From contig CAZOZL010000002.1 of the NCBI GenBank assembly GCA_964584305.1, forward strand, positions 211,336 through 275,335: a stretch of 64,000 nucleotides of DNA. Reading direction: 5' to 3'. Below the pieces are notes generated by a model, which saw only the letters and a list, made by a program, of their open reading frames with translations, ran no database searches and was not told where the DNA came from. This DNA comes from an uncultured Burkholderiales bacterium. GTDB lineage: Bacteria > Bacteroidota > Bacteroidia > UBA8524. Position numbers and translations under genes: made by a program. This document shows, piece by piece, positions 1 to 41,309 of the stretch. Within the stretch, counting starts at the first letter, position 1. Every line of letters begins with the position of its first letter.

Positions 1-3000
1 AGGACGAATAATTACTTGCTGCTGTACAGAGTCTCTACAATCTTTATCAGAAGTAGCTATTAAACGGATAGTGTAAGTACCATCCGTAGCATATATTTTG
101 GTAGGGTTTATTTGGGTAGATGTATCCGTTTGCGAAGGGGCATCAAAACGCCATAAAAAGGTTTGCGTTCCGTTACTTATAGTACTGCTATTAGTAAGTG
201 ATACTAAATGCCCTGGGAAACATTGTAAAGTATCATTAGTACTAAAATCGGGATTGGGTTTGGGCCATGTATATACCGTTCTGGTAATGGTATCGCCACA
301 GCCGCCCGTAGTTAGGTTTATAATAAGGCGTACCGTAAATGTATCAACTGTTGTATATGTTTTGGTAGGGTTAGTAGCTGTTGAGGTAGTACCATCACCA
401 AAATCCCAGTTGGTACTATATGCACCCGTAGTAGTTGAGGCATCGGTAAACGTGAAGCTATTACCATTTATACATTGGGCAGTATCATTAATAGTAAAAT
501 TGGCGGTAGGCTCTTGGAATACCTCCATGGTTTTAGTAATAGAATCTTTGCAGCCAAAATTTGAAGTACCCACCAGTTTCACAGGATATACTCCTGCTGT
601 ACCATAAATTTTTGATGGGGTGTTTAAAGTAGAAGTATCCGTGGTGCTATTACTAAATTGCCATAAATAAGTAGCCGTACCACTGGCTATACTTGATGTA
701 TTGGTGAAATTGAAAATATGCCCATTAAAACATTGATCACTATCATTCACTGTATAGGCTATATCGGGTTTGGGGCGCACATATACCGTTGCTGAAGTGC
801 TGTCTGCACAGCCTTCATTAGAAGTAGTTACCAATACTACCTTATATACCCCCTCTTGTGTAAACACTTTTGTAGGGTTGGCTTGTGTGGAAGTATCCGT
901 AGCACTTCCCCCAAAGTTCCATAAATAGCCTAATGTACCCGCTGATAGTGTAGAGCTATTAGTAAAAACAAAGCTATTGCCGTTTTCGCACTGGTCGGTA
1001 TCATTTATTGTAAATGCGGGTGCGGGTTTAGGATACACGAACACGTTTGCACGCGAAGAGTCTGCACACCCTTCATCTGAAACACTTATTAGTTTTACCT
1101 GATAGTTTCCTACTGCACCATATACTTTTACGGGGTTTGTTAGTATTGATGTATCGCTTGCAGTATTGCTAAATTCCCATTTATGGGTGATTGTTCCGCT
1201 ACCAATAGTAGTAGTATTAGTAAAAATGAAATTATTACCATTAATACACTGAGTAGTGTCGTTTACAGTAAAATCAGTATTTGGATTTGGAAGTAAATAT
1301 ATCAACCTACTAAAAGTATCCACACAACCACTATCGGTAGTAGCAATTAGCTGAACAGTATAAGTACTTCCAGCAACATAAGCTATTGTAGGGTTTTTTG
1401 CTGATGAAGTATCTCCATTACCAAAATCCCATAAGTAAGTAGCTACCCCTCCACTACTAACGGTACTGGTATCTGTAAAAACAAAATTGTTATCTTGTAG
1501 GCATTGGGCGGTATCGTTTATACTAAAACCTGCTATGGGTATTGGATTTATGACGACAACCTGAGTGGCGGTATCTGTTCCGCATTCGTTACCATATATT
1601 ACTTTAACTATATAAATACCTGCCGTTGAAAAATTAATAGTAGGGCTATGCACCGTAGAATCTCCACCTGCATAACTATATCCCGTTGCCCCTGTTATTA
1701 TCCATTGATAGGTTAAGCTATCACCTAAACGCCTGTCGTACACAGGGCGGTGGCGAGGTACTGAACCCGCCGAGTCATAAAACAATATTTGCGCGCCGCA
1801 ATAGGTTTGCGTATCGGGTAGTGCTACAATGGGTACATCTTTAACTACAATGGTATCTGTTAAACTATCAATATTGCAACGGTTTTCTGTAAATAACTCA
1901 ACAAAATACTCACCTATGGTATTAAACACTAATACAGGGCTATCAGAGGTTAGCGTACCCGATTGTAAAAAGAAACCGCTATTGGGTGTTATCTCCCACC
2001 TATAAGTTATATCATCACCTGTTGAGTTATTATTAAATAGTACCGTATGGTTTAAACATCCGCTTGCCCCATTCCCATCAATAGTAAAACTGGAGGTGGG
2101 TGGGTTAAGCACCCTTATCACCCTTCGTATGGTATCATCGCCACACACACTTAAACCTGCTTGTGCTATATTCCCCACTATTAACTCTACTGTATATACG
2201 CCCGTATCGGTAAAAGTCATGTTCAACTCTTGACTGCCCCAGTTGGCAGGGTTATTATTCCAGTTGGTGGCATTACCAAAACCTCCTGTGTTCAATGTCC
2301 ACCCTGTTCCGGGTAAAACATCCCACAAACGACGAGGCGTTTGATTACACCCACTATTTGAAGATACACTACCCGTATCTGATACATCACGAATAACGAA
2401 GGGAGCGTTTAAGCACACAGTATCACTGTTATCAGGCTGAATTTCAATTCTTGCTTCGGGCTTGGTAGAGATATAAATAGGGCGAATAGTAGCACTGTTT
2501 GTTCCGCAAGGGTTGTTTACCGTTAATACAGCCTCGAAAGAATTGGGAAACCCAACGGTATTAACACCACAAGATGGTTCTGTAAGTGTTTTTATTATTG
2601 ATGGAGGCGGTAAATGTGTATACGTTGTAGCCGTAGAACCATCATTAAAACTTAAAGTATAGGTAGTACCAGTAGCATTAGCTCCCACCCCTGTTACGCT
2701 AGTATCAATAGTAAAAGTAATATCATAAGGAGTACAGCCTGATGTACTGCCAGTGTTTCCTAAACTAACCGCTGGGTTTCCTCCATTAAATACACTATAT
2801 GTATTGGTGTTTACACAGCCAAAAGAGTCGGTAGTGGTTACCGTCATAGTAAATGCACCAGTGGTAGCGTATATATGAGTTGTATTAGTAAAACCGTTAA
2901 AAAAATTTTGTAAACCGCTACCATCTCCCCAATCAATAGTATAAATACTATCATTATTATTAGTGCCTGAAACATTATCTATTTGCAATGAAAATGGAGA

Positions 3001-3879
3001 TGACACCACATTGCATTGAACAAACTTGGGTATATTATTAAAATCATCAACTTGCCCATCGGGCTTGCGCCTAACATAAATAATTTTAGTAATAGTATCA
3101 CCGCAATTACCTGGTGTTGTAGCTATAAGAATAACTGGATAGCTTACATACGCAGGTGCGCCCACCGTATCAAAAACATTAGTTGGGTTTTGTAATGCTG
3201 ATGTATTGCCATTACCAAAATTCCACTGGTAACTAAGCAAGCTACCAGTGGAACTATTGGTAAAACTAATTGTAGAACCTGAACATAAACTATCGGAGGT
3301 AAACACAAAATCAGCATTGGGAAAATTATAAATGGTTACCGTTGTTGCGGCACTTGTATCCACACACCCATTTTGTGTGGCTATCACAGTGTAGTTGCCT
3401 GTTGTATTAACGGTTAGTGAGTCGTTGGTTGCGCCACCAATACTTACCCCATTTCTTTGCCACTGGTAGGTAATCCCTGCTCCAGCATTGGCTACCAAAA
3501 TTGTAGAACCACCTGCACATACATTTTGTGCCGCCGCTGGGGTAACTGTAGCTACTGTTTGATTAACCGTAAAAGTTTGAAAAACAGTATCAGAGCAATA
3601 AGGTCCACTAAAAAAACGGTACATCCATACCCCCTCAGTAGTACCTGTGGTATACTGTTTAGTAACTGTATCACCCTTTACAAGGCTGTTATCGCTGCTA
3701 AATCTATAAATTATACTATCCGTTGTGGCACTTGTAGTGTCAGTAAAAGTAATAGTTTGGTTTATACAAAAAGACGATGCTGTAATAGTAAACCCGCTTG
3801 CACCAACACACTGCGCTTGTACATTTTTAGCAAAAACGAATACTAATAAAATGGGTACTATTTTAAAAAATTTTCTCAC
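1..3879 (-). CDS. Giant secreted PKD/Ig-like repeat protein (adhesin-like); C-terminus lies beyond the left window edge; probable GTG start with signal peptide VRKFFKIVPILLVFVFAKNVQA
   Basis: Reverse-complement translation gives an open frame across the whole region with many ~90-aa repeats carrying the PKD signature W-D/N-F-G-D/N-G (e.g. rc of 391-430 = GAYSTNWDFGDG). The N-terminus at 3879 has a classic signal peptide, and in-frame stops (TGA, TAG) lie just upstream of the GTG. It is absent from the ORF track because no stop codon falls inside the window. Confidence 0.8.
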   Translation of the reverse strand, partial: MRKFFKIVPILLVFVFAKNVQAQCVGASGFTITASSFCINQTITFTDTTSATTDSIIYRFSSDNSLVKGDTVTKQYTTGTTEGVWMYRFFSGPYCSDTVFQTFTVNQTVATVTPAAAQNVCAGGSTILVANAGAGITYQWQRNGVSIGGATNDSLTVNTTGNYTVIATQNGCVDTSAATTVTIYNFPNADFVFTSDSLCSGSTISFTNSSTGSLLSYQWNFGNGNTSALQNPTNVFDTVGAPAYVSYPVILIATTPGNCGDTITKIIYVRRKPDGQVDDFNNIPKFVQCNVVSSPFSLQIDNVSGTNNNDSIYTIDWGDGSGLQNFFNGFTNTTHIYATTGAFTMTVTTTDSFGCVNTNTYSVFNGGNPAVSLGNTGSTSGCTPYDITFTIDTSVTGVGANATGTTYTLSFNDGSTATTYTHLPPPSIIKTLTEPSCGVNTVGFPNSFEAVLTVNNPCGTNSATIRPIYISTKPEARIEIQPDNSDTVCLNAPFVIRDVSDTGSVSSNSGCNQTPRRLWDVLPGTGWTLNTGGFGNATNWNNNPANWGSQELNMTFTDTGVYTVELIVGNIAQAGLSVCGDDTIRRVIRVLNPPTSSFTIDGNGASGCLNHTVLFNNNSTGDDITYRWEITPNSGFFLQSGTLTSDSPVLVFNTIGEYFVELFTENRCNIDSLTDTIVVKDVPIVALPDTQTYCGAQILFYDSAGSVPRHRPVYDRRLGDSLTYQWIITGATGYSYAGGDSTVHSPTINFSTAGIYIVKVIYGNECGTDTATQVVVINPIPIAGFSINDTAQCLQDNNFVFTDTSTVSSGGVATYLWDFGNGDTSSAKNPTIAYVAGSTYTVQLIATTDSGCVDTFSRLIYLLPNPNTDFTVNDTTQCINGNNFIFTNTTTIGSGTITHKWEFSNTASDTSILTNPVKVYGAVGNYQVKLISVSDEGCADSSRANVFVYPKPAPAFTINDTDQCENGNSFVFTNSSTLSAGTLGYLWNFGGSATDTSTQANPTKVFTQEGVYKVVLVTTSNEGCADSTSATVYVRPKPDIAYTVNDSDQCFNGHIFNFTNTSSIASGTATYLWQFSNSTTDTSTLNTPSKIYGTAGVYPVKLVGTSNFGCKDSITKTMEVFQEPTANFTINDTAQCINGNSFTFTDASTTTGAYSTNWDFGDGTTSTATNPTKTYTTVDTFTVRLIINLTTGGCGDTITRTVYTWPKPNPDFSTNDTLQCFPGHLVSLTNSSTISNGTQTFLWRFDAPSQTDTSTQINPTKIYATDGTYTIRLIATSDKDCRDSVQQQVIIRP
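150..3400 (-). repeat. Intragenic tandem array of ~270-nt PKD-domain coding repeats (at least 10 copies)
   Basis: Motifs such as aaaatcccagtt, aaagttccataa, aaattcccattt and aaaatcccataag (reverse complement of W-D/N-F-G codons) recur about every 260-280 nt. Flanking Thr/Ser/Asn-rich codons are conserved. Confidence 0.6.
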
Positions 3880-4056: not shown

Positions 4057-4920
4057 TTAATCAGGCTTTATCGCCCAAATATGACAACGCAAATTACTTA
4101 TCTCATCAATAAATTTAGTAGCAAAATGCGGTGCTAAATTTATTTTTCTTAACCTTTCCACTTCTCCATCACTTGCTTTGGTAACTTGCATCTGCGTGAG
4201 TGTAAAGCCTGCCTTAGCAAATAATGCCCCATACTCGTTTGCCAAAAGCCTATTTTGATACTGTAAATTGTTATTGTACTTACTATTCCATTCTTCCCAA
4301 TCATATTGGTAAAAGTTAAAAGGAGAAATACTATTATCATTGTATTGATAATGGTCTTGTAAATCTATAATACAACTAATAACACCGCCTGCTTTTAACA
4401 GCCGATAACACTCTTGCAAAATGGGCAAAATATCGTTTTTGGGAATATGCTCTAAGGTATCAGTAGAATGAATATAGTTAACACTTTCAGTTTCAAAATT
4501 AGTAGCTCGGGCATCAATATTTGGGTGGTATTCTATTCCCGTTTTACTTTTTAAATCATGCCTACTTTTAATTAACCCTATACCGTAAGAACCTTTTTCT
4601 ATAACATGGTTTACCAGCTCTTTTTTAAAAAGTGGGTTTACATCTGTTACTATCTGTTTTTTAAATCCCTCGTTCCAAAAAATAATGGGTACTGCTAAAT
4701 CATACCCTGCACCAAACTCATACACAATACTATCAAAATTACATTTTTTTGTACTAAAAGCAGTAAGGTGTTTTTTTGCCGCTACTTGTTTTTGGGCAAG
4801 CACCTTATCACTCATTGGCAAACTACGGTTTACCCTTCGTTGCAAAAAATAATTTAGCCCTTGGGCAAATGGTGTTTTGCTTATTGTTTTTTGAATAAAT
4901 GCCTTAGCTACCCAATTCAT
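4057..4920 (-). CDS. Class I SAM-dependent methyltransferase
   Basis: Motif I-like VYEFGAGYDLAVP and a post-I acidic residue. Rossmann-type methyltransferase architecture, 287 aa. Confidence 0.6.
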   Translation of the reverse strand: MNWVAKAFIQKTISKTPFAQGLNYFLQRRVNRSLPMSDKVLAQKQVAAKKHLTAFSTKKCNFDSIVYEFGAGYDLAVPIIFWNEGFKKQIVTDVNPLFKKELVNHVIEKGSYGIGLIKSRHDLKSKTGIEYHPNIDARATNFETESVNYIHSTDTLEHIPKNDILPILQECYRLLKAGGVISCIIDLQDHYQYNDNSISPFNFYQYDWEEWNSKYNNNLQYQNRLLANEYGALFAKAGFTLTQMQVTKASDGEVERLRKINLAPHFATKFIDEISNLRCHIWAIKPD

Positions 4921-5123
4921 TTTTTGACTAAACTAATTATGAAAAAAAACTTAGAAACACTAAATAGTATTGGCATACGCCGCTCACCTATTGTATATAG
5001 GCTTGCATACTTAGGCTTTATCTGTAACGGAGACATACTGCTTAATGCAGTATTGTTAAGACATTTAAACATGGTTTATTAGGGTTGTTTATACTTTTTC
5101 AGGAAATTTTATTCCCTATTGGG

Positions 5124-5348
5124 TCAGGAGACATTTTTAACCACTTCGCTCAGGGTGTAGCTGCCCACACTGCTAAGTTTTTGATTTAATACTTCCGTAT
5201 CTACCACAGTATCAAACTCTAATTTACCTTGTGGTGCATCTATCTGTATATCGGCAATTTTTACTTCGGGCAAGGTTTCTAACGTATTTTTAACCGCAGT
5301 AGCGCAGCCACCGCAAGTTATTCCTGTAATATTATACTCTTTTATCAT
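5124..5348 (-). CDS. Heavy-metal-associated (HMA) domain protein, CopZ-like metallochaperone
   Basis: 74 aa with the metal-binding loop ITGITCGGC (GMTCxxC-type) and a ferredoxin-like HMA fold pattern. Confidence 0.8.
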   Translation of the reverse strand: MIKEYNITGITCGGCATAVKNTLETLPEVKIADIQIDAPQGKLEFDTVVDTEVLNQKLSSVGSYTLSEVVKNVS

Positions 5349-5557
5349 AACACAAATATCGGTATATTATCCTCTCCTATACATTACACTATTCTGATAT
5401 TAGTTTATATGTTTTTGAGATTTAGATGCGGCATAGGGTGGCAGTTGTAGTCTCTTGCTCTAAATAAAATTTATATTTTAACTTTCCGCCTTACTTTTTT
5501 AAGGATAACGAATGTACATAGAAATAAAAAAACTTTCAGGTAAAGACACTACCGACC

Positions 5558-5773
5558 TTGCAGTATTATACCCAATACCAACGAAAAGGGATTGGTAAAA
5601 AGCTAATTTCAGCTTTATGCGAATATTGCAGCAAAAATGGGTTTAATGAGGTATTTGTTCAGGCAGAAACAGCCGATACGCAAGCAGTTAATTTTTATAG
5701 AACAACACCAATAAGTGATGAGTTACAAGCAACGCATTTTACCTATTCATTTGATAGTATTGATGATAAATAA
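5558..5773 (+). pseudogene. Truncated GNAT N-acetyltransferase remnant (C-terminal motif A/B portion only)
   Basis: 71 aa containing the acetyl-CoA motif RKGIGKKL (Q/R-x-x-G-x-G/A). It lacks the N-terminal half of a GNAT fold (normally ~150 aa). Confidence 0.5.
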
Positions 5774-6019
5774 TTGAGTATAATGTGTATATCAAGACTG
5801 TTTCAAGATGAAAGCCTTAGCATTCCTGCCCGCCCATTCGTTCGGGTAAACCTGCCCGAACGGCATGGGTCAGCTCGTTTATGCCAGTAAGTATAAGTGG
5901 GCGGTTTCAACCTATCGCTATGTTAATTATATTACTTTAAAAAAAACATAATCCTTGCAACGGTCTTATACCACTAACAAAGTTAGGGTGTTTGCCTATT
6001 ATTTTTTTGGATGATGGCT

Positions 6020-7588
6020 TTACTTTTCAGCTTCTTTTTTGGCTAAATACTTATAAAAGAAAGAATTAGTAGTACCCAAATATTGTTGGCTTATACTATT
6101 ATCTATCACATAGTTGTCAGTGTACTCGGGCTTTACCTGCACCAACCATTCATTATGGCTTAGTATATTGTACTTTTGAGGTACTTGGGCAATGGTATAT
6201 TTCTTAGTTTTTAGCTGTGGCGTATAGGCAATGGTTTTATATACTTGCCACAATCGGGGTAGCAACATTAAACCAATAATACCATACACTACAATGTACT
6301 TTTTAATAGGTTCAATACGTATTTTTTGCAGAAAAAATACTATCCATAGCAACATTACAAAATAAAAAGGAATGGAAGCACGGGCAATTAAATCATTATA
6401 TGCCCCAAACTTATAAAAACTCATCAATATTAGGCACACAATAGAAATAAAGCCCAGTCTCTTGTAGCTTCCAATAAAATCCAACCTTTTATCTTTATAA
6501 AGTAAATACAAGAAAATAATGCCAAATTTTAACACTATAAATACCAAGGCATAAAGCAACCAATTACTGCCTGTAATTTGCCATACAAAACCATGCTGCA
6601 GCGCAAGATGATGTGCCAATAAGTAACTTATAGTAAAAAAAAGAAGTACACCTCCAAACACATAAAACCTGATATTTTGTTTGAAAAAAACCTGTTTTCT
6701 ATCAAGCCAAAGGTGATATACAGCAAAAGGAAGTAAACCAAGACCCACCAGTGGCGACCAAAACACCACTAATGCCACCAGTACAGCAGTGTACCTAAAC
6801 GAGAGTTTTTTAGTGATTGCATACACCACTACTGCCGATGCTAAAAAACCGGACAAAACGTGTTGTGGTGCTGATAAAAATCCTACAAAAAAAGAAGGTA
6901 TATTTTGGGTGAAATACGGAACAATCAACTCTGACCGTGTATAAGTGACAGTACCTTTTAGCAAAGCTATTAAACCATACTGCGGGTAGTAGGTAAACAA
7001 GTAGTATATATAATGCCCTGCCACCCACAGAAACTCAAAACCCGATATACCCAAAAACACTACCCACAAAATAAAATTGTTGGTTTTCAGTACCGCCCTT
7101 AACCATAGAAAAAGCAAGCCAAGTCCCATAGCTGTCCACAAAAAAGAGGTGAATACCATCGCCCCAATACCCGCAATTTTGCCCACACCTGCAGGAACCA
7201 TATACCAGCCTAAGTAGTAGGTAAGCATAGCTGGTTCTTTTGTTGCTGTATAGGTTACGGGCCAGTTGTTCCGTAATAAATCACTAAAAATAAGGTTGTG
7301 CTTAAAAAAATCATCACGTTGCCACAGCATTTCCCCAATACCCGAAAAAGCCGCTAAACCCAAGCAAAAAGCAAGCAAGTACAGTATTTGCGGTTTACTC
7401 AAAGTTAAAGTCTCGCCTATACTCGTATCGTTTTGGGTATGCTTTACCATCATATACCCTAAAAAAAGTAATGCGGCGGTAGCAGGCAGTGCAATACCTA
7501 ATTGTACCCACCCTAAAATAAAAATTAAGTGAGGAGCGAACAGGTAGGCAATAGTTAAAAGTAAAAGCCTAACAACAGTAATTTTCAT
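6020..7588 (-). CDS. Large polytopic integral membrane protein (~13 TM helices), possibly a GT-C-fold glycosyltransferase or polymerase-like; last gene of the polysaccharide operon
   Basis: 522 aa that is highly hydrophobic throughout, with a short soluble C-terminal tail. The position and orientation are contiguous with the XrtF pair and the glycosyltransferases. Confidence 0.5.
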   Translation of the reverse strand: MKITVVRLLLLTIAYLFAPHLIFILGWVQLGIALPATAALLFLGYMMVKHTQNDTSIGETLTLSKPQILYLLAFCLGLAAFSGIGEMLWQRDDFFKHNLIFSDLLRNNWPVTYTATKEPAMLTYYLGWYMVPAGVGKIAGIGAMVFTSFLWTAMGLGLLFLWLRAVLKTNNFILWVVFLGISGFEFLWVAGHYIYYLFTYYPQYGLIALLKGTVTYTRSELIVPYFTQNIPSFFVGFLSAPQHVLSGFLASAVVVYAITKKLSFRYTAVLVALVVFWSPLVGLGLLPFAVYHLWLDRKQVFFKQNIRFYVFGGVLLFFTISYLLAHHLALQHGFVWQITGSNWLLYALVFIVLKFGIIFLYLLYKDKRLDFIGSYKRLGFISIVCLILMSFYKFGAYNDLIARASIPFYFVMLLWIVFFLQKIRIEPIKKYIVVYGIIGLMLLPRLWQVYKTIAYTPQLKTKKYTIAQVPQKYNILSHNEWLVQVKPEYTDNYVIDNSISQQYLGTTNSFFYKYLAKKEAEK

Positions 7589-7638: not shown

Positions 7639-8106
7639 TTAGTCTTGCTTTATTTTTTGTTGGAAATAGAATGCGGGGATGAGTAACACCATAAGAATAG
7701 GGTTCATTACCAATCGGTAAAGAGGGACTACAAGAGAATAGTCGGCATAGGTGTCTGCTTTTAGGGTAAGAAATATATAGATAGGAAATAATACTAATAA
7801 GCCAAAAATTTGCATATAAAAGCCAAATACAACATATCGCCTATTATTAAACAAGGCATATATTAATAAAATACACAGTAAGTCATTAGCTATAAATCTT
7901 ATTAAACGGCTAATGGCAAAGTTTACTTCTTTACCTTCTTGAATGCGCCCACCAAAACTTTGATTGAAGCGGTGTTGCCCATCTACAAAATCAAAATCTT
8001 GAAAGGTATAAAAAAAAGCAAGCCCTATAAGGGCCAAAAATACTAAACCAATACGTTTAAGTCCTATATCAAGTAGGTTCATCAGTTTTGGATTTAGGTG
8101 TAGCAA
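7639..8106 (-). CDS. Exosortase F system-associated small membrane protein (XrtF partner family)
   Basis: 155-aa multi-TM protein whose start overlaps the XrtF-like gene by 38 nt. The XrtF/partner pairing is an established Bacteroidetes signature. Confidence 0.5.
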   Translation of the reverse strand: MLHLNPKLMNLLDIGLKRIGLVFLALIGLAFFYTFQDFDFVDGQHRFNQSFGGRIQEGKEVNFAISRLIRFIANDLLCILLIYALFNNRRYVVFGFYMQIFGLLVLFPIYIFLTLKADTYADYSLVVPLYRLVMNPILMVLLIPAFYFQQKIKQD

Positions 8107-8641
8107 TAGGGTTTATTTTGGTTACCCAAAAATACCATAACACAAATACTATTGCGTATATAGAAAGTGTAAACAGGTATTTGTGCGTGAAATGGAAAAG
8201 GGGACTATTTGTAAGTGCCATTTGTGCTAATAGCAATAAACGAAACAAGTTGGCTATATGTATAACTACTATACCCAGTATTGAGAACCAAGCCAGCTTT
8301 TTAAGCCCGCCCCAAAAACCTACTAAAAACGAGAAAAAGAGATTTGCAATAGCAACGCCATTACACCCCTCAAACACAGAAATAGAGTATTTACCATTAA
8401 TATATATATCCATAGAAGGGTTACCCGTTCTATCGGTTGAGGTTACCGCTTCGTAAAACCATGCTAATATACCCCGTATTTGCGTGGCAACATTACGCGT
8501 AATAGGGTCTGCCACATCTTTATACCCTGCTACCCAAGAACTATATATCAAACTAAGCACCGTAAATGCTATGCTAAAGCGCAACAAAAATAAGATAGCG
8601 GGCTTAAACTCGTTATAAAAAATTTTAATTTTTTGCTTCAC
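8069..8641 (-). CDS. xrtF: Exosortase family protein, XrtF-like (EpsH/exosortase superfamily)
   Basis: 190-aa multi-TM protein with a candidate active-site Cys in EGCNG and an N-x-x-R motif (ANLFRLLLL) as in exosortases. The size and Bacteroidetes polysaccharide-locus context fit XrtF. Confidence 0.55.
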   Translation of the reverse strand: MKQKIKIFYNEFKPAILFLLRFSIAFTVLSLIYSSWVAGYKDVADPITRNVATQIRGILAWFYEAVTSTDRTGNPSMDIYINGKYSISVFEGCNGVAIANLFFSFLVGFWGGLKKLAWFSILGIVVIHIANLFRLLLLAQMALTNSPLFHFTHKYLFTLSIYAIVFVLWYFWVTKINPIATPKSKTDEPT

Positions 8642-9440
8642 TTCTTAAGTAGTTTTTATAAATTTTTTTTGCCCAAATTATCGGTAATAACCTCACTATG
8701 GTTCGCACAAATATATTAAACAAAAAATGATGCGCCCTTATAAACCCTTCTTCCCAAAGTTGTTTAATCGCCTTATAGTCGTTTTGTAATGCTTTAACTC
8801 CCAGCCTACGCACATAATTTTGGTTTTGTGCATACACTAATATTTTGGGTATATTGGCTGATGTATAGCCCTTTTCAAACATCCGTAGCCACAAGTACCA
8901 ATCTTCGGCAAAGTAAAAATTTTTATATCCGCCAGCATCCAACACCGTTGTTTTTTTATAAAATACCGTAGGATGGCTGTGCGGTGTTCTATACTTCGAA
9001 AAACGCCTAATTTTGTTAAAAACCAATGGCACTTTACGCACATAGGTCTTTCCTTTGGGCTGACGTTCCCCGTAATACGACCCTACTAAATCTATTTCGG
9101 GGTGTTGTTTTATAAAGGCTATGGTGTCTTCAAATCTATTAAGCTCGGCTTTGTCATCGGCATCCATACGTGCCACCCACTCATTAGTACAATGTTTCAA
9201 CCCTTCGTTTAAGGCATTGCCCACCCCCGTATTTATAGGTAGTGTTATCACTTTTATTTTCGCCTGCTTTCTTAACTCTGCTAATTGTATGGAAATTCCA
9301 TCTTCAACAGGTCCGTCTTGCACAACAATAATTTCATTTGCAGGCAGTGTTTGCGATAAAATACTATTTAGCGCAATGGTAAACTCATGGGTAGTATTGC
9401 CATGATATACAGGAAAAAGTACTGAAAATTGATAATTCAC
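8625..9440 (-). CDS. Family 2 glycosyltransferase
   Basis: GT-A N-terminal domain (VYHGNT...IVVQDG) and a DxD-like MDADD motif. Confidence 0.85.
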   Translation of the reverse strand: MNYQFSVLFPVYHGNTTHEFTIALNSILSQTLPANEIIVVQDGPVEDGISIQLAELRKQAKIKVITLPINTGVGNALNEGLKHCTNEWVARMDADDKAELNRFEDTIAFIKQHPEIDLVGSYYGERQPKGKTYVRKVPLVFNKIRRFSKYRTPHSHPTVFYKKTTVLDAGGYKNFYFAEDWYLWLRMFEKGYTSANIPKILVYAQNQNYVRRLGVKALQNDYKAIKQLWEEGFIRAHHFLFNIFVRTIVRLLPIIWAKKIYKNYLRSEAKN

Positions 9441-9467
9441 TTAAAAAATATCGGTAGCAGGTAAGTA

Positions 9468-10430
9468 TTAGGCTACGGGTTTAATAGCCCCTTTTAATAC
9501 TAAATATTTTGTGGTGATGTATAACACCCCCAATATTATTAAAATAGCAATAGGTTGCCACCACAACATAGTAGCATTAGTATTTATAAGCCAAATACCT
9601 ATTATAGCCTGAATAGTTGCATATATAGCACTCACCACTAAATGTGGTAACTTTATCTCGTTACTTAGGTACTGGTATAAATGGCGGCGGTGCGCGCTAA
9701 AAATATTTTCTTTTAAAAACAAACGATGAATGATGGTTAAAACACTATCCACCCCATAAACAGCCAATAGTAAAATATACTTATAATCACCTGTAAAAAT
9801 AATGAGTTGGGTAAGCAGAAATAGCACGATAAATGCCATTGATACACTGCCCACATCACCCGCAAAACATTTTGCTTTTTGCCTAAAATTAAATATCAAA
9901 AATACTACTACCCCAATAATAGAATAGATGATAAAACTTGCATCAACAAAACCATAGCTACTGTTTAACACGTACAAAGGCAATAAAACACTAAGGCTAT
10001 AAGCACCTGTAATGCCGTTTATACCATCCATAAAATTATAAGCATTTATAGTACCTATAACCAATACATACCCCACCACAACCCATACCCAATGGTAGGC
10101 AAACCACTCCGCTTGATAAAACAATAACGATACTGCCACCAAATGCACCAAAATGCGCACCTTACCTGATAGTGTTTTTATATCATCAATAAAACTAACT
10201 ATACTAATAACTACTAAGCCCATTACAAACCACGGGTAATTGCCTGTGGTTACAAAATATGCCAATATAGAAAAGGGGAATATTATTCCCCCACCACGTA
10301 ACGTTATTTTTGTATGTGAGCTTCGCTCATTGGGTTTATCAATAATATTATACTTATCAGCAATGCGAAAGTATGCCAACTCTGCCACCAACAATACCGC
10401 AAAAACTACTATATAAATGACGTATTCCAT
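9468..10430 (-). CDS. Undecaprenyl-phosphate N-acetylhexosamine-1-phosphate transferase (WecA/MraY family, initiating transferase)
   Basis: Multi-TM protein with the MraY/WecA signature NAYNFMDGINGI and a cytoplasmic DD motif. Confidence 0.85.
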   Translation of the reverse strand: MEYVIYIVVFAVLLVAELAYFRIADKYNIIDKPNERSSHTKITLRGGGIIFPFSILAYFVTTGNYPWFVMGLVVISIVSFIDDIKTLSGKVRILVHLVAVSLLFYQAEWFAYHWVWVVVGYVLVIGTINAYNFMDGINGITGAYSLSVLLPLYVLNSSYGFVDASFIIYSIIGVVVFLIFNFRQKAKCFAGDVGSVSMAFIVLFLLTQLIIFTGDYKYILLLAVYGVDSVLTIIHRLFLKENIFSAHRRHLYQYLSNEIKLPHLVVSAIYATIQAIIGIWLINTNATMLWWQPIAILIILGVLYITTKYLVLKGAIKPVA

Positions 10431-10460: not shown

Positions 10461-11501
10461 CTATTTCTTTTTAAGTTTAGTTAAGTCCCTTGTCTCGTAA
10501 ATGCGCTCTATAATATCTACTACTTTCAACCCCTCTAAAGCATTAGCGGTAATAGTATCCTTCCCGTTAAGTGTATTCACCACATTCTCAATCACATAGT
10601 GGTGGTTTGCCGCACTGCCCTTAAATGGTCCATAATCATTAGGCGGGTTAGTAGGTGCTAACTTTGGTATTTCATAGTTTTCTATATGGCAGTACTCAAT
10701 CTCGTTCATGTATTGCCCCCCCACTTTATAACTTCCTTTACTACCCACTACGGTAATGCTACTTTCCATATTGGTCTCGTAAATAGAAGTAGAAAAGTTG
10801 ATGCAGCCTATGCCCCCGTTTACAAACTCAAAATTTACCACTCCGCTATCTTCAAACTCGGTAGTGTTAGCATGGTTAAAGTCTTTAAAAATGGCTTTTA
10901 TATTTTTTATATCGCCAAATACCCAATACATAATATCTACAAAGTGGCTAAATTGGGTAAACAAAGTACCCCCGTCAAGGTTTAGTTTTCCTTTCCATCC
11001 ATCCACTTTATAGTAACGGCTATCTCTATTCCAATAGCAGTTTACTTGTACCATTAGCACATCGCCAATAGTCCCTTCACTCACTACTTTTTTCATCCAC
11101 TTACTTGGAGGGCTGTATCGGTTTTGTTTCACCACAAATACTTGTTTCGAAACATTAAGAGCTTTAAAAATTACACTCTCACACTCTGCCTTGCTTAAAC
11201 CCATTGGTTTCTCTATCACTACATGGCTGCCATTGTCTAATGCCATTAATGCCTGTGAACAATGAAAACCATTTGGCGTAGCAATATTTAATACATCTAC
11301 TTTTATATCTGACGCAAAAAACTCCTCAATGGAGTTAAAAAAGGGAACTCCAGCAGGATATAAATCATGTTCTTTTGCCTTTGGGTCTATATCTATAATT
11401 GCAGCCAATTCAGACCCTTCATACTCATTTATTATAGTAGCGTGCCTGCGCCCAATATGCCCAAACCCCGATACCGCAAATTTTATATTAGCTTTTTGCA
11501 T
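10461..11501 (-). CDS. Gfo/Idh/MocA family NAD(P)-dependent sugar oxidoreductase
   Basis: N-terminal Rossmann fold (FAVSGFGHIGRRH) and the EKP motif (VVIEKPMG) typical of the family. Confidence 0.85.
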   Translation of the reverse strand: MQKANIKFAVSGFGHIGRRHATIINEYEGSELAAIIDIDPKAKEHDLYPAGVPFFNSIEEFFASDIKVDVLNIATPNGFHCSQALMALDNGSHVVIEKPMGLSKAECESVIFKALNVSKQVFVVKQNRYSPPSKWMKKVVSEGTIGDVLMVQVNCYWNRDSRYYKVDGWKGKLNLDGGTLFTQFSHFVDIMYWVFGDIKNIKAIFKDFNHANTTEFEDSGVVNFEFVNGGIGCINFSTSIYETNMESSITVVGSKGSYKVGGQYMNEIEYCHIENYEIPKLAPTNPPNDYGPFKGSAANHHYVIENVVNTLNGKDTITANALEGLKVVDIIERIYETRDLTKLKKK

Positions 11502-12651
11502 ACGTTTTGCTAAATCTCTTTTTTAAAAAATCTTTTAATTGTGTAGGCCAATTCTTATCCATACACGGTTGCTCTATTAGCTTGAAAAAAACGGCTGACA
11601 CTGTCAACAACCCAATAAGGGCAACACCAAAATTAACCACTATACTAAGCACAAAATTACTTATTGGTATAAGACTCATGCCTTTCATAACTGCAAACAA
11701 TACAGGGTAATGTAACAAGTATATGGTATAACACATACCGCCCACTATCACAATAAACTCACGTGTAAAAATATAGTTAAAAACAAAACCTCTAAAAACA
11801 GCCATAAATAAGCCAAATACACCAATATCAAAATAGATGCGCTCATACTTAACAGTATCAGGATGGAAACTAAATAGCAATACCAAAGATATTGCCCCCA
11901 CCACATCCCACAAATAGGCTTTCTTTATTTTTTTTAATCCAAAAAGAAATACATCAACAAAGGCGAAACCCACTAAAAAGCTGTGTATATAATTGATAAT
12001 GGATTTATGCAGGTGATACTCACGCAAATCTGCTAATGTATAAGGAACTACAAAATCTAATATTAGTATAGTGGCTACTACTAATATACGCCTGCGGGTA
12101 TGGTTTTTTATAAAAAGAACTGACGATATAAGCGGTGCTAATAAATAAAACTGCACCTCCGTTTCTAAACTCCAAGTAACAGGATTTATGGGGTTGAACT
12201 CGCTAAATATAAAAAAATGAACATAGAAAATGCCTGCAACAAAATCATCTAATAAGCTAAATACACTCTCATTAAAAAACAGTACATATAGTACAAACAG
12301 TATTACTAAAGATATTATATAAGGTGGTTCTAACCTTGTGAGCCGCCTTATGAAATAGTTTTTTATATTCACCTTTCTACCTTCTGCCAAATAGTACTTG
12401 GCAAAGGGCAAACCCAGTATAAACCCACTAATAGCAAAAAAAACATCTACTCCTAAACCACCTTGCGTAAAAAGGTGATGAATAAATGAATCTAAATAGC
12501 CTTGCGGAATTATATCGGCATATACCCTTTTATAGTTGGTATTGGTATGTAGAAATATGACCGTTATTATGGCTACAAAACGTAACCCATCTATTTCAGG
12601 AATGAAATTGTTGGTAGAAGTTACTCTTCGAAACGATTTTAAACTAAGCAC
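11488..12651 (-). CDS. Acyltransferase family 3 (OafA/OatA-like) membrane O-acyltransferase
   Basis: EIDGLRFVAI...FLH motif and about 10 TM helices, 387 aa. Confidence 0.8.
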   Translation of the reverse strand: MLSLKSFRRVTSTNNFIPEIDGLRFVAIITVIFLHTNTNYKRVYADIIPQGYLDSFIHHLFTQGGLGVDVFFAISGFILGLPFAKYYLAEGRKVNIKNYFIRRLTRLEPPYIISLVILFVLYVLFFNESVFSLLDDFVAGIFYVHFFIFSEFNPINPVTWSLETEVQFYLLAPLISSVLFIKNHTRRRILVVATILILDFVVPYTLADLREYHLHKSIINYIHSFLVGFAFVDVFLFGLKKIKKAYLWDVVGAISLVLLFSFHPDTVKYERIYFDIGVFGLFMAVFRGFVFNYIFTREFIVIVGGMCYTIYLLHYPVLFAVMKGMSLIPISNFVLSIVVNFGVALIGLLTVSAVFFKLIEQPCMDKNWPTQLKDFLKKRFSKTYAKS

Positions 12652-13555
12652 TAAGCGGGGTATCTATAAAAGAGTTTGAAGTCCAGTCTATTTCTTTTCG
12701 TGCCTTATCATCAGCAAAAGTAAGCGTGGAGGTTATTTTTTTATACTGCCTTGTTTTGAGTGGAAATTTAGGAATAAAACTTCCAAATATTGCCACTGTT
12801 TGTGCTACAAAAGCAGGAATTTTAATTTTTACTTTAGTATTGATTTCATCAGCCATTTTATCCTCTATTTGAGCAAAAGTAGGATGTACACCATCCGTTA
12901 GATTATACTCGCCCGATTGTGTTTTACTAAACAACGTAGGAATAAAATTAGCCACATCACTTGCCAACACTATCGATTTTTTTGCCTCTCCCCTGCCAAT
13001 TCTAAAATAGTAGCCTTTTTTAAGGGCTTTTATCATACTGCCTAAGTTACCAGGTGGATTTGCCCCCCCCAATAAAGGTAAACGAAGGTTAAAATAATTT
13101 ATCCCTTGAGGTTTGCACCATTCAGCTATTTTTTCTTCGGCTTTTATTTTGCTTTGCCCATAAGGGTCGGCAGCGTTTAATGGATGAGCCTCCGTAATAT
13201 TTTCACCACTATCTACCCCATATACAGCAACAGAACTTATAAATATTATGGCTTGTGGAATATTATTGCTGTTTTCTAAAGCCCTTAGTAAATTCTCTGT
13301 TCCTCCCAAATTTACATCCCAAAAGGCTTGTTTTTGTTCTTCGGTTTTTGGAATACTGTGCGCCTTGCCCGCCGCATGAAGCACCGCCACATATTTCCCT
13401 TTTAGTTCAGGAATTTCTTTACTCAAATCGCAAGTAATATCATTGCCTTCGCCTGCCAAACCGATAGTTTCTATCTCGTATCCAGCATTAAGCAAACCTT
13501 GTTTAAGGTAGTTGCCTAAAAAACCTCCTGCACCTGTAACTAATACTTTTGGCAA
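12644..13555 (-). CDS. NAD-dependent epimerase/dehydratase (extended SDR)
   Basis: VLVTGAGGFLGNYL glycine-rich motif and the SSVAVYG region. Confidence 0.8.
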   Translation of the reverse strand: MPKVLVTGAGGFLGNYLKQGLLNAGYEIETIGLAGEGNDITCDLSKEIPELKGKYVAVLHAAGKAHSIPKTEEQKQAFWDVNLGGTENLLRALENSNNIPQAIIFISSVAVYGVDSGENITEAHPLNAADPYGQSKIKAEEKIAEWCKPQGINYFNLRLPLLGGANPPGNLGSMIKALKKGYYFRIGRGEAKKSIVLASDVANFIPTLFSKTQSGEYNLTDGVHPTFAQIEDKMADEINTKVKIKIPAFVAQTVAIFGSFIPKFPLKTRQYKKITSTLTFADDKARKEIDWTSNSFIDTPLSA

Positions 13556-13627
13556 TTCTTTTTTTGCTTTTATCTTGTTAGCCTTTAGCTACGGAGATTA
13601 CCCATATCAAAGACTAAATGCAGTATT

Positions 13628-14266
13628 TTACTCCATTACCCAACGCATTACCTCAAAGGCTTCTGCGTACTGTGTGCCAATTTGCACCCCTCTTGCTCGG
13701 GCAAGCGAGGTTATAAAATCAGCTTTCATATAATCTCTATGGCTTTGCGATTTGTATTCGCCTAATGCCTCCACTTTGCTATCTATATGGCGTTGCTCCA
13801 ATTTCACAAAGCATTGTGTATTAAAGGTAAGATTGTTCCAAATAAGCTCGTAGCCTAAAAGGGTAGTGGTTTTAAAAGCCCTGCGCCCTTCACTGGCAAT
13901 AGTGCTATGATCTTGGTGTATATCGCCCAAGGTGGGCATAAACACAGCATCAAAAGTCTGTGTTTTACTAATTTTTATTAGCTCTTCTAATATTTCTTGG
14001 CGCACATAGTTTAGTTTACGCACCTCATAGTCAAATATTAAAAGGTTTTCAGCAGGAATACCCAATTTTTGAGTAGCTGCTTTTACTTCTTGTTTTAAAA
14101 TATCTTTCGGATACCCATCAGGCACAGATTTTTCAGCAGTAGAAAATGCAGCATACCAAACGTTTGACCCGTTTTCTATTAGCTTGGCTATTGTACCGCC
14201 CGCCCCTAATTCTCCATCATCGGTATGCGGTGCTAAAACAAGTATATTTTTAAGATTGGTTAACAA
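13628..14266 (-). CDS. PIG-L/LmbE family N-acetylglucosaminyl de-N-acetylase
   Basis: The PHTDDGELG motif (HPDDE type) and a downstream H-x-D-H motif (DIHQDH). Confidence 0.8.
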   Translation of the reverse strand: MLTNLKNILVLAPHTDDGELGAGGTIAKLIENGSNVWYAAFSTAEKSVPDGYPKDILKQEVKAATQKLGIPAENLLIFDYEVRKLNYVRQEILEELIKISKTQTFDAVFMPTLGDIHQDHSTIASEGRRAFKTTTLLGYELIWNNLTFNTQCFVKLEQRHIDSKVEALGEYKSQSHRDYMKADFITSLARARGVQIGTQYAEAFEVMRWVME

Positions 14267-36068: not shown

Positions 36069-36069
36069 A

Positions 36070-41308: not shown

Positions 41309-41309
41309 C

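What the first reader, a model, noticed from the sequence alone, without database searches (positions are those of the whole stretch)
7639..8641. XrtF-type exosortase and its obligate partner sit at the distal end of a polysaccharide operon
Two overlapping small polytopic membrane proteins match the XrtF (exosortase F) and 'exosortase F system-associated' families, with a candidate catalytic Cys in EGCNG and an N-x-x-R motif. Exosortases are transpeptidase-like sorting enzymes whose best-known targets carry PEP-CTERM signals. XrtF is Bacteroidetes-specific and has no experimentally defined substrate or sorting signal. Here the pair is translationally coupled to a GT2, a WecA-like initiating transferase and a 13-TM GT-C/polymerase-like protein, so it seems to be part of the glycan pathway rather than a separate system. 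It is a genuinely uncharacterised protein-sorting or glycoconjugate-attachment step.
Basis: partly seen in the sequence, partly recalled or inferred. Interest (0 to 1): 0.7.

Follow-up and report, generated by a model that had tools for sequence, protein, structure and literature searches.

The report
XrtF exosortase pair in glycan operon
Two small overlapping membrane-protein genes are a genuine XrtF exosortase and its usual partner. They sit among the genes that start assembly of a surface sugar polymer, which makes this a correctly identified member of an already catalogued family whose substrate remains unknown.

Summary
Window 8069..8641(-) scores 121.7 bits on TIGR04128 XrtF (cut-off 90). 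Window 7639..8082(-) scores 51.4 bits on TIGR04127 (cut-off 35). The genes overlap by 14 nt, and XrtF overlaps the upstream GT2 by 17 nt. C93 (EGCNG), N131/R134 and H153 are invariant in 36 homologues.

The 'part of the glycan pathway' reading is supported by comparison. In the 80 closest genome loci, all Bacteroidota apart from mislabelled records, the partner directly follows XrtF in 75. A NeuD/PglD-type sugar N-acetyltransferase lies just upstream in 54 of 64. An initiating phosphoglycosyltransferase lies upstream in 47 of 64. A DegT aminotransferase, a ~1600-aa T9SS-tailed protein and a PglF-like dehydratase commonly lie downstream.

The substrate remains unknown and nothing here identifies it. 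A published F. johnsoniae study already shows that ΔxrtF and Δpartner lose biofilm formation. The neighbouring giant PKD protein is most likely a T9SS type-B cargo, not an exosortase-style target.

Verdict: a new member of a known family in a variant context, of moderate interest.

The parts
8069..8641 (-). XrtF exosortase-family protein. It is 190 aa with a GTG start and about 4 TM helices. C93, R134 and H153 are predicted to lie at the periplasmic face.
   Evidence: TIGR04128 scores 121.7 bits against a cut-off of 90. EGC93NG, N131, R134 and H153-K-Y are invariant in 36 homologues. Hydropathy gives TM segments at 15-33, 95-113, 121-139 and 156-174. The JGI call on L081 gives the same gene.
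7639..8082 (-). Exosortase F system-associated membrane protein, the partner. It is 147 aa with about 4 TM helices. Its C-terminus carries an invariant R-x3-N-P motif, then a hydrophobic helix, then a basic tail.
   Evidence: TIGR04127 scores 51.4 bits against a cut-off of 35. In 71 locus-derived homologues R62, N66, D67, Y102, R123, N127 and P128 (numbering from the ATG start) are invariant. A partner lies directly downstream of XrtF in 75 of 80 loci. There is no homology to XrtF: hhalign probability is 0.6%.
8625..9440 (-). Family-2 glycosyltransferase of 271 aa. Its stop overlaps the XrtF start by 17 nt.
   Evidence: PF00535 scores 81.9 bits. The best NCBIfam hit, EpsE, is far below its cut-off. 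The gene is conserved immediately upstream of XrtF only in L001-L006.
9468..10430 (-). WecA/MraY-family (Pfam Glycos_transf_4) polyprenyl-phosphate N-acetylhexosamine-1-phosphate transferase, about 10 TM helices. It is the likely initiating enzyme of the locus.
   Evidence: PF00953 scores 73.1 bits. The TIGR02380 WecA equivalog scores only 59 bits against a cut-off of 326, so this is a family member, not WecA itself. The same family lies upstream of XrtF in 10 of 64 loci.
6020..7588 (-). A 522-aa polytopic membrane protein with a GT-C fold, a polyprenyl-phosphate-sugar-dependent periplasmic glycosyltransferase type. It is the last gene of the operon.
10461..14266 (-). Sugar-modification genes immediately upstream. 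They are co-directional, tightly packed, and syntenic in the window's clade: GFO/IDH/MocA oxidoreductase (10461-11501), Acyl_transf_3 O-acyltransferase (11488-12651), NAD epimerase/dehydratase (12644-13555) and PIG-L deacetylase (13628-14266).
   Evidence: Pfam and NCBIfam hits come, plus the L081 table. The same gene order occurs in L001-L005.
1..3879 (-). N-terminal 1293 aa of a 4992-aa secreted PKD-repeat protein. This is context, not part of the XrtF module. It is probably a T9SS type-B cargo.
   Evidence: The reading frame is open from 3888 and runs off the window start. The L081 gene call is 4992 aa with PKD domains. The syntenic relative L083 carries a 5621-aa version that ends without a TM or basic tail. 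It has a weak TIGR04131 match and is followed by a PorP/SprF gene scoring 147.5 bits.

Best explanation
Shown. The two genes encode a bona fide XrtF exosortase-family enzyme and its TIGR04127 partner. Both are 4-helix inner-membrane proteins. They are translated from overlapping reading frames as one module.

XrtF keeps the invariant Cys93/Arg134/His153 set of the exosortase/archaeosortase family. Hydropathy and the positive-inside rule place all three at the periplasmic face. The partner's invariant polar residues (R62, N66, D67, R123, N127) are predicted to lie on the same face.

The module is not free-standing. Across Bacteroidota it is wedged into the 'initiation end' of surface-glycan loci. 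On one side are the enzyme that puts the first sugar on undecaprenyl phosphate and NeuD/PglD-type amino-sugar N-acetyltransferases. On the other are often a DegT aminotransferase and a PglF-like dehydratase. In this window it lies between a WecA-family transferase plus a GT2 and a GT-C-fold periplasmic glycosyltransferase.

Inferred. XrtF plus partner works as a two-subunit cysteine peptidase/transpeptidase on the outer face of the inner membrane. Its job is tied to the lipid-linked glycan made by the same operon. Most likely it cleaves a membrane-anchored polypeptide and passes the acyl group to an amine on, or associated with, that glycan, or otherwise matures a protein-glycan surface conjugate. 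The partner acts as a substrate- or acceptor-binding subunit.

The physiological output is a surface layer needed for adhesion and biofilm, as shown genetically in F. johnsoniae.
For: Identity:
- HMM scores are above curated cut-offs.
- The catalytic-type residues are invariant. The Cys/Arg/His triad is the conserved feature of the family (PMC6098224).
- TM topology comes from hydropathy.

One module:
- The partner lies directly downstream in 75 of 80 loci.
- It overlaps XrtF or starts within 30 nt in 66 of 69 loci.
- One 338-aa natural XrtF-partner fusion exists, P0298.
- In F. johnsoniae, deleting either gene gives identical phenotypes in all seven assays.

Glycan embedding:
- The upstream same-strand gene ends within 30 nt of the XrtF start in 66 of 73 loci, most often with a 4-nt overlap.
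- A TIGR03570 NeuD/PglB/VioB acetyltransferase lies within four upstream genes in 54 of 64 loci.
- A Bac_transf or GT4/WecA phosphoglycosyltransferase lies upstream in 47 of 64.
- A DegT/LegC-like aminotransferase lies downstream in 36 of 61 and upstream in 13 of the 64 loci with upstream flank.
- A PglF-like dehydratase lies downstream in 25 of 61.
- The window's locus is a Wza/Wzc/Wzx/Wzy glycan cluster.
- The 522-aa neighbour has a GT-C fold.

Precedent for amide-linking proteins to an amino-acyl sugar in Bacteroidota, and published speculation that exosortases use a similar acceptor: PMC7468200. In one search, ΔxrtF and Δfjoh_1449 have the same phenotype pattern as ΔporU, ΔporZ and a DegT aminotransferase mutant.
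Against: - No substrate, sorting signal or acceptor was identified. The transpeptidation-to-glycan step is pure inference.
- Apart from polytopic proteins, the window encodes no protein with a C-terminal TM plus basic tail.
- The window itself lacks the NeuD/PglD-like, Bac_transf and DegT genes that define the common context. The amino-sugar link is therefore weakest exactly here.
- Neighbourhood statistics come from the best 80 of 291 confirmed loci. They are dominated by Cytophagales, and Flavobacteriaceae were not sampled.
- In F. johnsoniae, xrtF (Fjoh_1448) lies outside the 76.5-kb polysaccharide cluster that holds Fjoh_0334.
- Four Schleiferiaceae loci have an XrtF-scoring gene beside a glutamine amidotransferase with no partner.
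- Exosortases in general sit near EPS loci, so co-location may reflect co-regulation only.
- The single fusion protein could be a frameshift artefact of two overlapping genes.
- The partner model is only moderate (pLDDT 73.9) and its fold search was uninformative.
Confidence: 0.55

Rival explanations
1. Classical exosortase model. XrtF/partner is an independent protein-sorting system. Its many targets are encoded elsewhere in the genome and carry a C-terminal signal that has not yet been recognised. The glycan locus is only a co-regulated neighbour, and the acceptor is a membrane lipid, as for archaeosortase A or rhombosortase, not the glycan.
For: - The protein is a family member with an intact Cys/Arg/His set.
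- Exosortases generally occur in EPS loci (PMC1569441 and PMC12188702).
- F. johnsoniae xrtF is not inside the large polysaccharide cluster.
- No target is encoded in the window.
Against: - The family's curators and later authors report no cognate signal for XrtF.
- Coupling is unusually tight: a 4-nt overlap with a sugar N-acetyltransferase is the modal arrangement, and the position between sugar-biosynthesis genes is conserved. That is more than loose co-location.
- A dedicated polytopic partner is atypical for many-target sortases.
Confidence: 0.25
2. The partner itself is the dedicated substrate. Its invariant C-terminal (H/Y)R-x3-N-P motif, hydrophobic helix and basic tail would be a sorting-signal-like tripartite element. 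XrtF would cleave it near N-P and release or re-anchor a 3-TM product.
For: - The tripartite C-terminus is invariant in 71 homologues.
- The motif is predicted at the periplasmic face, like XrtF's Cys.
- It is the only conserved protein in the loci with such an end.
- One-to-one enzyme/target pairs are usually adjacent.
Against: - Known targets are secreted proteins with a signal peptide and a soluble domain, not 4-TM proteins.
- Other invariant polar residues (R62, N66, D67, Y102) lie far from the C-terminus. That suggests a folded functional site, not a disposable tag.
- The hydrophobic stretch after N-P is short, about 12-13 residues.
- A natural XrtF-partner fusion fits a subunit better than a substrate.
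- NCBIfam's own name for TIGR04127, 'exosortase F system-associated membrane protein', does not describe it as a target.
Confidence: 0.1
3. Non-proteolytic glycan-handling role. In this clade the GT2 - XrtF - partner - GT-C cassette would work like ArnC-ArnE/F-ArnT or GtrB-GtrA-GtrC. The two small 4-TM proteins would flip or present an undecaprenyl-phosphate sugar to the GT-C enzyme.
For: - The cassette order is GT2, two small 4-TM proteins, then a GT-C-fold enzyme.
- The locus also has formyltransferase and deacetylase genes reminiscent of Arn chemistry.
Against: - The XrtF/partner pair occurs in about 70 other loci without this GT2 or any homologue of the 522-aa protein.
- Neither protein matches the GtrA or EamA/SMR flippase families.
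- An invariant Cys/Arg/His set is unexplained by a flippase role.
- The GT2 resembles chain-building EpsE/TuaG types more than ArnC/GtrB: 74 versus 19 bits.
Confidence: 0.07

Closest known systems
XrtF / exosortase F system (NCBIfam TIGR04128 + TIGR04127; F. johnsoniae Fjoh_1448/Fjoh_1449)
   Same: Both HMMs score above their curated cut-offs. The gene order and overlap are the same. The Cys/Arg/His residues are invariant. The lineage is Bacteroidota. Sizes are similar at roughly 180 and 145 aa.
   Different: The window's subclade is only 31-45% identical to the Cytophagales XrtF sequences aligned. It has a different immediate context: a WecA-family transferase, GT2 and GT-C in place of PglC/PglD/PglE/PglF-like genes. 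The window itself has lost the PglD-like gene that its five closest relatives keep.
XrtA/EpsH-PEP-CTERM exosortase systems of Proteobacteria and cyanobacteria
   Same: The catalytic signature domain is shared (TIGR04178, 34.7 bits against a cut-off of 23). Both are associated with exopolysaccharide loci. In both, mutants of the sorting system have floc, biofilm or surface phenotypes.
   Different: No PEP-CTERM-like target class is known or seen. The enzyme is much shorter, with 4 TM helices. It needs a dedicated 4-TM partner that PEP-CTERM systems lack. No EpsI-like protein is present.
Archaeosortase A (ArtA, Haloferax volcanii)
   Same: It is a homologous membrane enzyme with the same conserved residue set. 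It cleaves a C-terminal tripartite signal and leaves the protein attached to a membrane anchor (PMC6098224, PMC7157517).
   Different: ArtA has known PGF-CTERM substrates and a lipid acceptor. It acts alone and is not embedded among sugar-initiation genes.
[quoted passage not shown]
   Same: It is a Bacteroidota-specific sortase-like reaction. It amide-links cleaved proteins to an amino-acyl sugar of a lipid-linked glycan made by an amino-sugar (Wbp/Vim) pathway (PMC7468200, PMC8545088). In F. johnsoniae, porU, porZ, xrtF and the partner gene give the same mutant phenotype pattern. T9SS cargo genes are conserved next to XrtF loci.
   Different: PorU is an unrelated outer-membrane, surface-exposed protease. 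XrtF is an inner-membrane protein. Any functional connection between them is speculation.

Membership tests
XrtF (TIGR04128) | Profile-HMM score at or above the curated cut-off and better placed than sister exosortase models | tested here: met
   XrtF scores 121.7 bits against a cut-off of 90. XrtX scores 106.2 against 170, and XrtH 54.3 against 86.
XrtF (TIGR04128) | Conserved exosortase/archaeosortase residues (Cys, Arg, His) in the signature domain | tested here: met
   C93, R134 and H153 are invariant, and N131 as well, in 36 sequences. TIGR04178 scores 34.7 bits against a cut-off of 23.
XrtF (TIGR04128) | Adjacent TIGR04127 partner gene | tested here: met
   The partner overlaps XrtF by 14 nt. 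The same adjacency holds in 75 of 80 related loci.
XrtF (TIGR04128) | Bacteroidota lineage | tested here: met
   The closest loci, L001-L004, are 'Bacteroidia bacterium' MAGs. All 80 loci are Bacteroidota apart from mislabelled records.
XrtF (TIGR04128) | Peptidase/transpeptidase activity on a defined C-terminal sorting signal | not testable with these tools
   No substrate is known for any XrtF. No candidate is encoded in the window.
Exosortase F system-associated protein (TIGR04127) | HMM score at or above the cut-off, small polytopic protein encoded next to XrtF | tested here: met
   The score is 51.4 bits against a cut-off of 35. The protein has about 4 TM helices. Family representatives are nearly all stand-alone proteins of 130-165 aa.
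PEP-CTERM/exosortase A-type system | Cognate PEP-CTERM target proteins and an XrtA/EpsH-length enzyme | tested here: not met
   No XrtA- or XrtB-type model appears among the hits. The window has no secreted protein with a C-terminal TM plus basic tail. A genome-wide test was not possible.
GT-C fold glycosyltransferases (the 522-aa neighbour) | GT-C membrane fold with a conserved acidic residue in the first extracytoplasmic loop | tested here: met
WecA (TIGR02380 equivalog) | Equivalog-level HMM score | tested here: not met
   The score is 59.1 bits against a cut-off of 326. It is a member of the wider Glycos_transf_4 (MraY/WecA) family, with PF00953 at 73.1 bits.
Bacillosamine-type (PglC/D/E/F-like) initiation module flanking XrtF | Small Bac_transf PGT, NeuD/PglD acetyltransferase, DegT aminotransferase and PglF-like dehydratase next to XrtF | tested here: not met
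   The module is present in most Cytophagales loci but absent from the whole 64-kb window (tblastn). Relatives L001-L005 keep only the PglD-like gene.

The most novel reading that the evidence does not exclude
XrtF plus partner is an inner-membrane transpeptidase whose acceptor is an amine on the reducing-end amino sugar of the undecaprenyl-diphosphate-linked glycan built by the flanking genes. It would covalently join a protein or peptide to a surface glycan before export. That would make it an inner-membrane counterpart of the PorU/A-LPS attachment reaction. It would also explain why xrtF mutants show the same phenotype pattern as porU/porZ mutants, and why T9SS cargo genes are conserved inside XrtF loci.
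Probability: 0.15. Interest if true: 0.8.

Novelty: new member of a known kind. Interest (0 to 1): 0.4.

Why it matters
XrtF is a widespread Bacteroidota exosortase with a published biofilm and colonisation phenotype. No substrate, signal or acceptor is reported for it in the papers found here (2024-2025).

This window does not solve that. The comparison it prompted does show that XrtF and its partner are almost always translated together with the enzymes that make and load the first (amino-)sugar of a surface glycan. That narrows the search for the missing acceptor or substrate to the lipid-linked glycan pathway. It gives concrete experiments in F. johnsoniae, where the mutants already exist.

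If the glycan-acceptor idea held, it would describe a way of making protein-glycan surface conjugates that has not been shown for any exosortase. If not, this is simply a correctly annotated accessory gene pair.

Tried and rejected
1. Is the partner a degenerate paralogue of XrtF? No. hhalign probability is 0.6%.
3. Is there a solved exosortase structure? None was found by sequence or by profile in the PDB.
4. Is the giant PKD protein an XrtF target?
   - Its C-terminus lies 15 kb beyond the window, and an exact-match scan of metagenome contigs found nothing.
   - A syntenic relative (L083) ends without a TM or basic tail.
   - That relative has a sub-threshold T9SS type-B CTD match and is followed by a PorP/SprF gene.
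   - It is therefore rejected as a classical exosortase-type substrate.
5. Is the ~1600-aa T9SS protein of Cytophagales loci homologous to the PKD protein? No, apart from weak repeat matches.
6. Do the loci carry VimA-like (FemAB family) genes? The conserved GNAT in Cytophagales loci is Acetyltransf_9, not the FemAB type, and there was no TIGR03019 hit. The window's 570-aa Acetyltransf_6 protein was not followed further.
7. Sigma-70 promoter and terminator scans around the operon were no better than shuffles for promoters and showed nothing interpretable. Bacteroidota promoters are not covered by the tool.
8. The F. johnsoniae supplement was searched for the neighbours of Fjoh_1448, without result.
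9. A scan of the window for secreted proteins with a C-terminal TM plus basic tail found only polytopic membrane proteins.
Full report
**1. Observation**

The minus strand of the window carries two overlapping ORFs at 8069..8641 (190 aa, GTG start) and 7639..8106. The second is most likely translated from the ATG at 8082, giving 147 aa. This is the start chosen by the gene call on the source contig (L081), and the homologues' N-termini fit it.

Against NCBIfam:
- The first protein scores 121.7 bits (E 3.6e-35) on TIGR04128 'exosortase family protein XrtF', curated cut-off 90.
- Its scores on the sister models XrtX (106.2 against 170) and XrtH (54.3 against 86) are below their cut-offs.
- The second protein scores 51.4 bits (E 1.2e-13) on TIGR04127 'exosortase F system-associated membrane protein', cut-off 35.

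Pfam reports nothing for either protein.

An alignment of 36 homologues down to 31% identity shows E91-G92-C93-N94-G95, N131, R134 and H153-K154-Y155 as invariant. Cys/Arg/His is the residue set that the exosortase/archaeosortase family shares with sortases (PMC6098224).

Hydropathy gives four TM helices in each protein. By the positive-inside rule, which is my inference, C93, R134 and H153 sit at the periplasmic ends of helices. The partner's invariant R62, N66, D67, R123, N127 and P128 sit on the same face.

XrtF's start overlaps the stop of the upstream GT2 by 17 nt. The partner's ATG overlaps XrtF's end by 14 nt. The WecA-like gene ends 27 nt before the GT2, and the 522-aa gene starts 50 nt after the partner.

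**2. Surroundings in the window**

Everything from about 49.9 kb down to 6.0 kb is on the minus strand and is glycan biosynthesis. In order:
- Wza-like Poly_export (49059-49859) and a Wzc-like protein (46559-49048).
- UDP-sugar dehydrogenase.
- NeuB, a 2-epimerase and a cytidylyltransferase, which together indicate a nonulosonic acid.
- A Wzx-type flippase (38199-39638).
- A WbuX/HisH/HisF-like amidotransferase trio.
- Several GT1 and GT2 enzymes.
- A Wzy_C protein (27053-28267).
- Formyltransferases and deacetylases.
- PIG-L, an epimerase, Acyl_transf_3 and a GFO/IDH/MocA oxidoreductase.
- A Glycos_transf_4 (WecA/MraY-family) transferase and a GT2.
- XrtF, the partner and a 522-aa membrane protein.

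After position 6020 there is a 1.1-kb stretch. It holds an oppositely oriented GNAT fragment and a 74-aa HMA protein, followed by a methyltransferase and a giant PKD-repeat protein. 'Distal end of a polysaccharide operon' is therefore accurate.

**3. Related loci**

A scan of one genome per species confirmed 291 loci, and the best 80 were fetched with 10-kb flanks.
- The closest, L001-L006 at 55-80% identity, are 'Bacteroidia bacterium' MAGs.
- The rest, at 33-44% identity, are mainly Cytophagales: Fulvivirga, Ohtaekwangia, Chryseolinea, Cyclobacteriaceae and Roseivirgaceae. A few are Flavobacteriales.

I called ORFs, clustered them and mapped gene order.

A partner HMM finds a partner directly downstream of XrtF in 75 of 80 loci. 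One of the five exceptions is a truncated contig. The other four are Schleiferiaceae/Thermaurantimonas loci, where an XrtF-scoring gene (115 bits) sits beside a glutamine amidotransferase with no partner.

The conserved order in Cytophagales is:
- glycosyltransferases, a Wzy-like protein, a deacetylase and a GNAT;
- a small Bac_transf phosphoglycosyltransferase;
- one or two TIGR03570 NeuD/PglB/VioB sugar N-acetyltransferases;
- XrtF, then the partner;
- a DegT/LegC-like aminotransferase;
- a ~1600-aa protein with a T9SS type-A C-terminal domain;
- a PglF-like Polysacc_synt_2 dehydratase.

Counts:

| Feature | Loci |
|---|---|
| Acetyltransferase within four upstream genes | 54 of 64 |
| Initiating phosphoglycosyltransferase upstream, of either type | 47 of 64 (Bac_transf 42, WecA family 10; some loci have both) |
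| Aminotransferase downstream | 36 of 61 |
| Aminotransferase upstream | 13 of 64 |
| T9SS-tailed protein downstream | 31 of 61 |
| PglF-like dehydratase downstream | 25 of 61 |

The upstream gene ends within 30 nt of XrtF in 66 of 73 loci, most often with a 4-nt overlap. The partner overlaps XrtF or starts within 30 nt in 66 of 69 loci. These distances use longest-ORF starts, which biases them toward overlap.

The linkage is strong and is specifically to the initiation and amino-sugar end of glycan loci.

The window's own clade has a different version: epimerase, Acyl_transf_3, GFO oxidoreductase, WecA-family transferase, PglD-like acetyltransferase, GT2, XrtF, partner, the GT-C protein (only in L001-L003), then a methyltransferase. 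The window has cleanly lost the PglD-like gene. Nowhere in its 64 kb does it have a Bac_transf, NeuD/PglD-like or DegT homologue.

**4. The partner**

- It is unrelated to XrtF.
- In 1.84 billion representative proteins, its family has only 158 clusters at E≤1e-3. Nearly all are stand-alone proteins of 130-165 aa.
- One 338-aa protein, P0298, is an XrtF-partner fusion in gene order: the XrtF HMM matches residues 13-190 and the partner HMM residues 233-335. This fits a two-subunit enzyme. However, because the genes overlap, a single indel could create such a fusion artificially.
- Its C-terminus, (H/Y)R-x3-N-P followed by a hydrophobic helix and a basic tail, resembles a sorting signal. I keep 'the partner is the substrate' as a minor rival.
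- The fold search on the moderate model was uninformative.

**5. Candidate targets**

No protein in the window other than polytopic membrane proteins ends in a TM helix plus basic tail.

The giant PKD protein begins at 3879 and is 4992 aa on the source contig. In a syntenic relative, L083, the methyltransferase is 54% identical and the giant N-terminus 56% identical. There the protein is 5621 aa and ends '...GTVTLIR' with no TM or basic tail. It gives a sub-threshold match to the T9SS type-B sorting domain (21.8 bits against 35). It is followed by a PorP/SprF gene (147.5 bits against 90.55). It is best read as a T9SS type-B cargo, not an exosortase-type target.

**6. Literature**

XrtF is barely studied. 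One paper shows that in F. johnsoniae, ΔxrtF (Fjoh_1448) and ΔFjoh_1449 both lose sand colonisation, static biofilm and 'zorb' formation. Their phenotype pattern is the same as for ΔporU, ΔporZ and a DegT aminotransferase mutant from the large polysaccharide cluster. The paper states that the substrates are unknown and are expected to differ from PEP-CTERM (PMC10936215). A 2025 paper repeats that XrtF targets are not known (PMC12188702).

Veith et al. showed that T9SS cargo are amide-linked to an amino-acyl sugar made by a Wbp/Vim amino-sugar pathway. They speculated that exosortases may use a similar sugar acceptor (PMC7468200).

**7. Mechanism**

Shown:
- family membership and conserved catalytic-type residues;
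- an operon-level unit of XrtF and partner;
- conserved embedding among glycan-initiation and amino-sugar genes;
- a GT-C neighbour in this clade.

Inferred:
- The two proteins form one membrane enzyme whose active site faces the periplasm.
- It cleaves an amide bond in a membrane-anchored substrate.
- It resolves the acyl-enzyme onto a nucleophile connected with the lipid-linked glycan made by the same operon.

The last step is the weakest. I give it about 0.15-0.25 on its own, and the window's lack of amino-sugar genes weakens it further here. Three rivals remain open: an independent sorting system with unrecognised targets, the partner as substrate, and an Arn/Gtr-like glycan-handling cassette.

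**8. Comparison and novelty**

This is a member of the XrtF/TIGR04127 system by every feature I could test. NCBI's annotation pipeline uses these two models to name proteins, so it would be expected to name both genes. What differs is the context, and the window's loss of the PglD-like gene.

As far as I can tell from the papers found, the general pattern has not been described: XrtF wedged between PglC/PglD-like and PglE/PglF-like genes, with a conserved T9SS cargo gene. That pattern concerns the family, not this window in particular.

I rate it a new member of a known kind, with moderate interest. The open question is real and the comparison makes it more testable, but the instance itself is ordinary and comes from an uncultured organism.

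Noticed in passing
window 1..3879 (-); L081 11042..20864; L083 1073..19026: A 4992-aa secreted PKD-repeat protein lies just downstream of the operon. In a syntenic relative it is 5621 aa and ends in a weak T9SS type-B sorting-domain match (21.8 bits, below the cut-off of 35). A PorP/SprF gene (147.5 bits) follows it, the usual arrangement for type-B cargo.
   Followed up: yes
L075 12257..17050 and 36 other loci (cluster c6): A ~1600-aa protein has only one recognisable domain, a T9SS type-A C-terminal sorting domain. It is conserved in the same operon position, between the DegT aminotransferase and the PglF-like dehydratase, in 31 of 61 XrtF loci. Why a T9SS cargo gene sits inside a sugar-biosynthesis operon is unexplained.
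   Followed up: partly
window 9440..9468 versus L001 8602..9186: The five closest relatives have a NeuD/PglD-like acetyltransferase gene between the WecA-like gene and the GT2. In the window it is cleanly absent, leaving a 27-nt spacer. No homologue exists anywhere in the 64 kb.
   Followed up: yes
L007, L012, L016, L017 (Schleiferia / Thermaurantimonas): An XrtF-scoring gene (L012: 115 bits on TIGR04128; 116.5 on XrtX, below its cut-off of 170) sits next to a class-I glutamine amidotransferase. It has no adjacent partner and no glycan genes. This may be a distinct subfamily.
   Followed up: partly
P0298 (338 aa, from the representative library): A single natural XrtF-partner fusion protein in gene order. 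In its partner half the N-P motif reads Q-P and the N-D pair reads N-A. It could equally be a frameshift artefact of two overlapping genes.
   Followed up: partly
window 6020..7588 (-): The GT-C-fold protein belongs to a very rare family. The word-indexed search of 5.8 billion proteins found 17 relatives, and no Pfam or NCBIfam model covers it.
   Followed up: yes
window 4920..6020: This is the operon break. It contains a 71-aa fragment of a GNAT acetyltransferase on the opposite strand (5558..5773), a 74-aa heavy-metal-associated (HMA) protein (5124..5348, -) and a 51-aa ORF. It looks like a remnant of rearrangement.
   Followed up: no
window 24932..26644 (-): A 570-aa protein has an Acetyltransf_6 domain (PF13480, described by Pfam only as a GNAT domain). 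From memory, not checked here, this is the FemAB-like family to which VimA belongs. VimA adds the amino acid to the T9SS linking sugar in P. gingivalis. Polysaccharide deacetylase (22058..22960) and formyltransferase genes are nearby.
   Followed up: no
window 34679..37275 and 39646..43468 (-): The locus also encodes a WbuX (356 bits)/HisH-like/HisF-like trio, indicating acetamidino-sugar formation. It encodes a NeuB/2-epimerase/cytidylyltransferase set, indicating a nonulosonic acid. The glycan is therefore probably rich in modified amino sugars.
   Followed up: no
window 51044..52558 (-): A SusE-domain protein with a T9SS type-A sorting domain lies at the proximal edge of the glycan locus, just upstream of the Wza-like gene.
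   Followed up: no
L005 (CALRQL020000001.1); P0153: Two public records holding close relatives of this Bacteroidota locus are labelled 'Agrobacterium sp.' and 'Oscillatoria amoena'. These are probably mis-binned or contaminant contigs.
   Followed up: no
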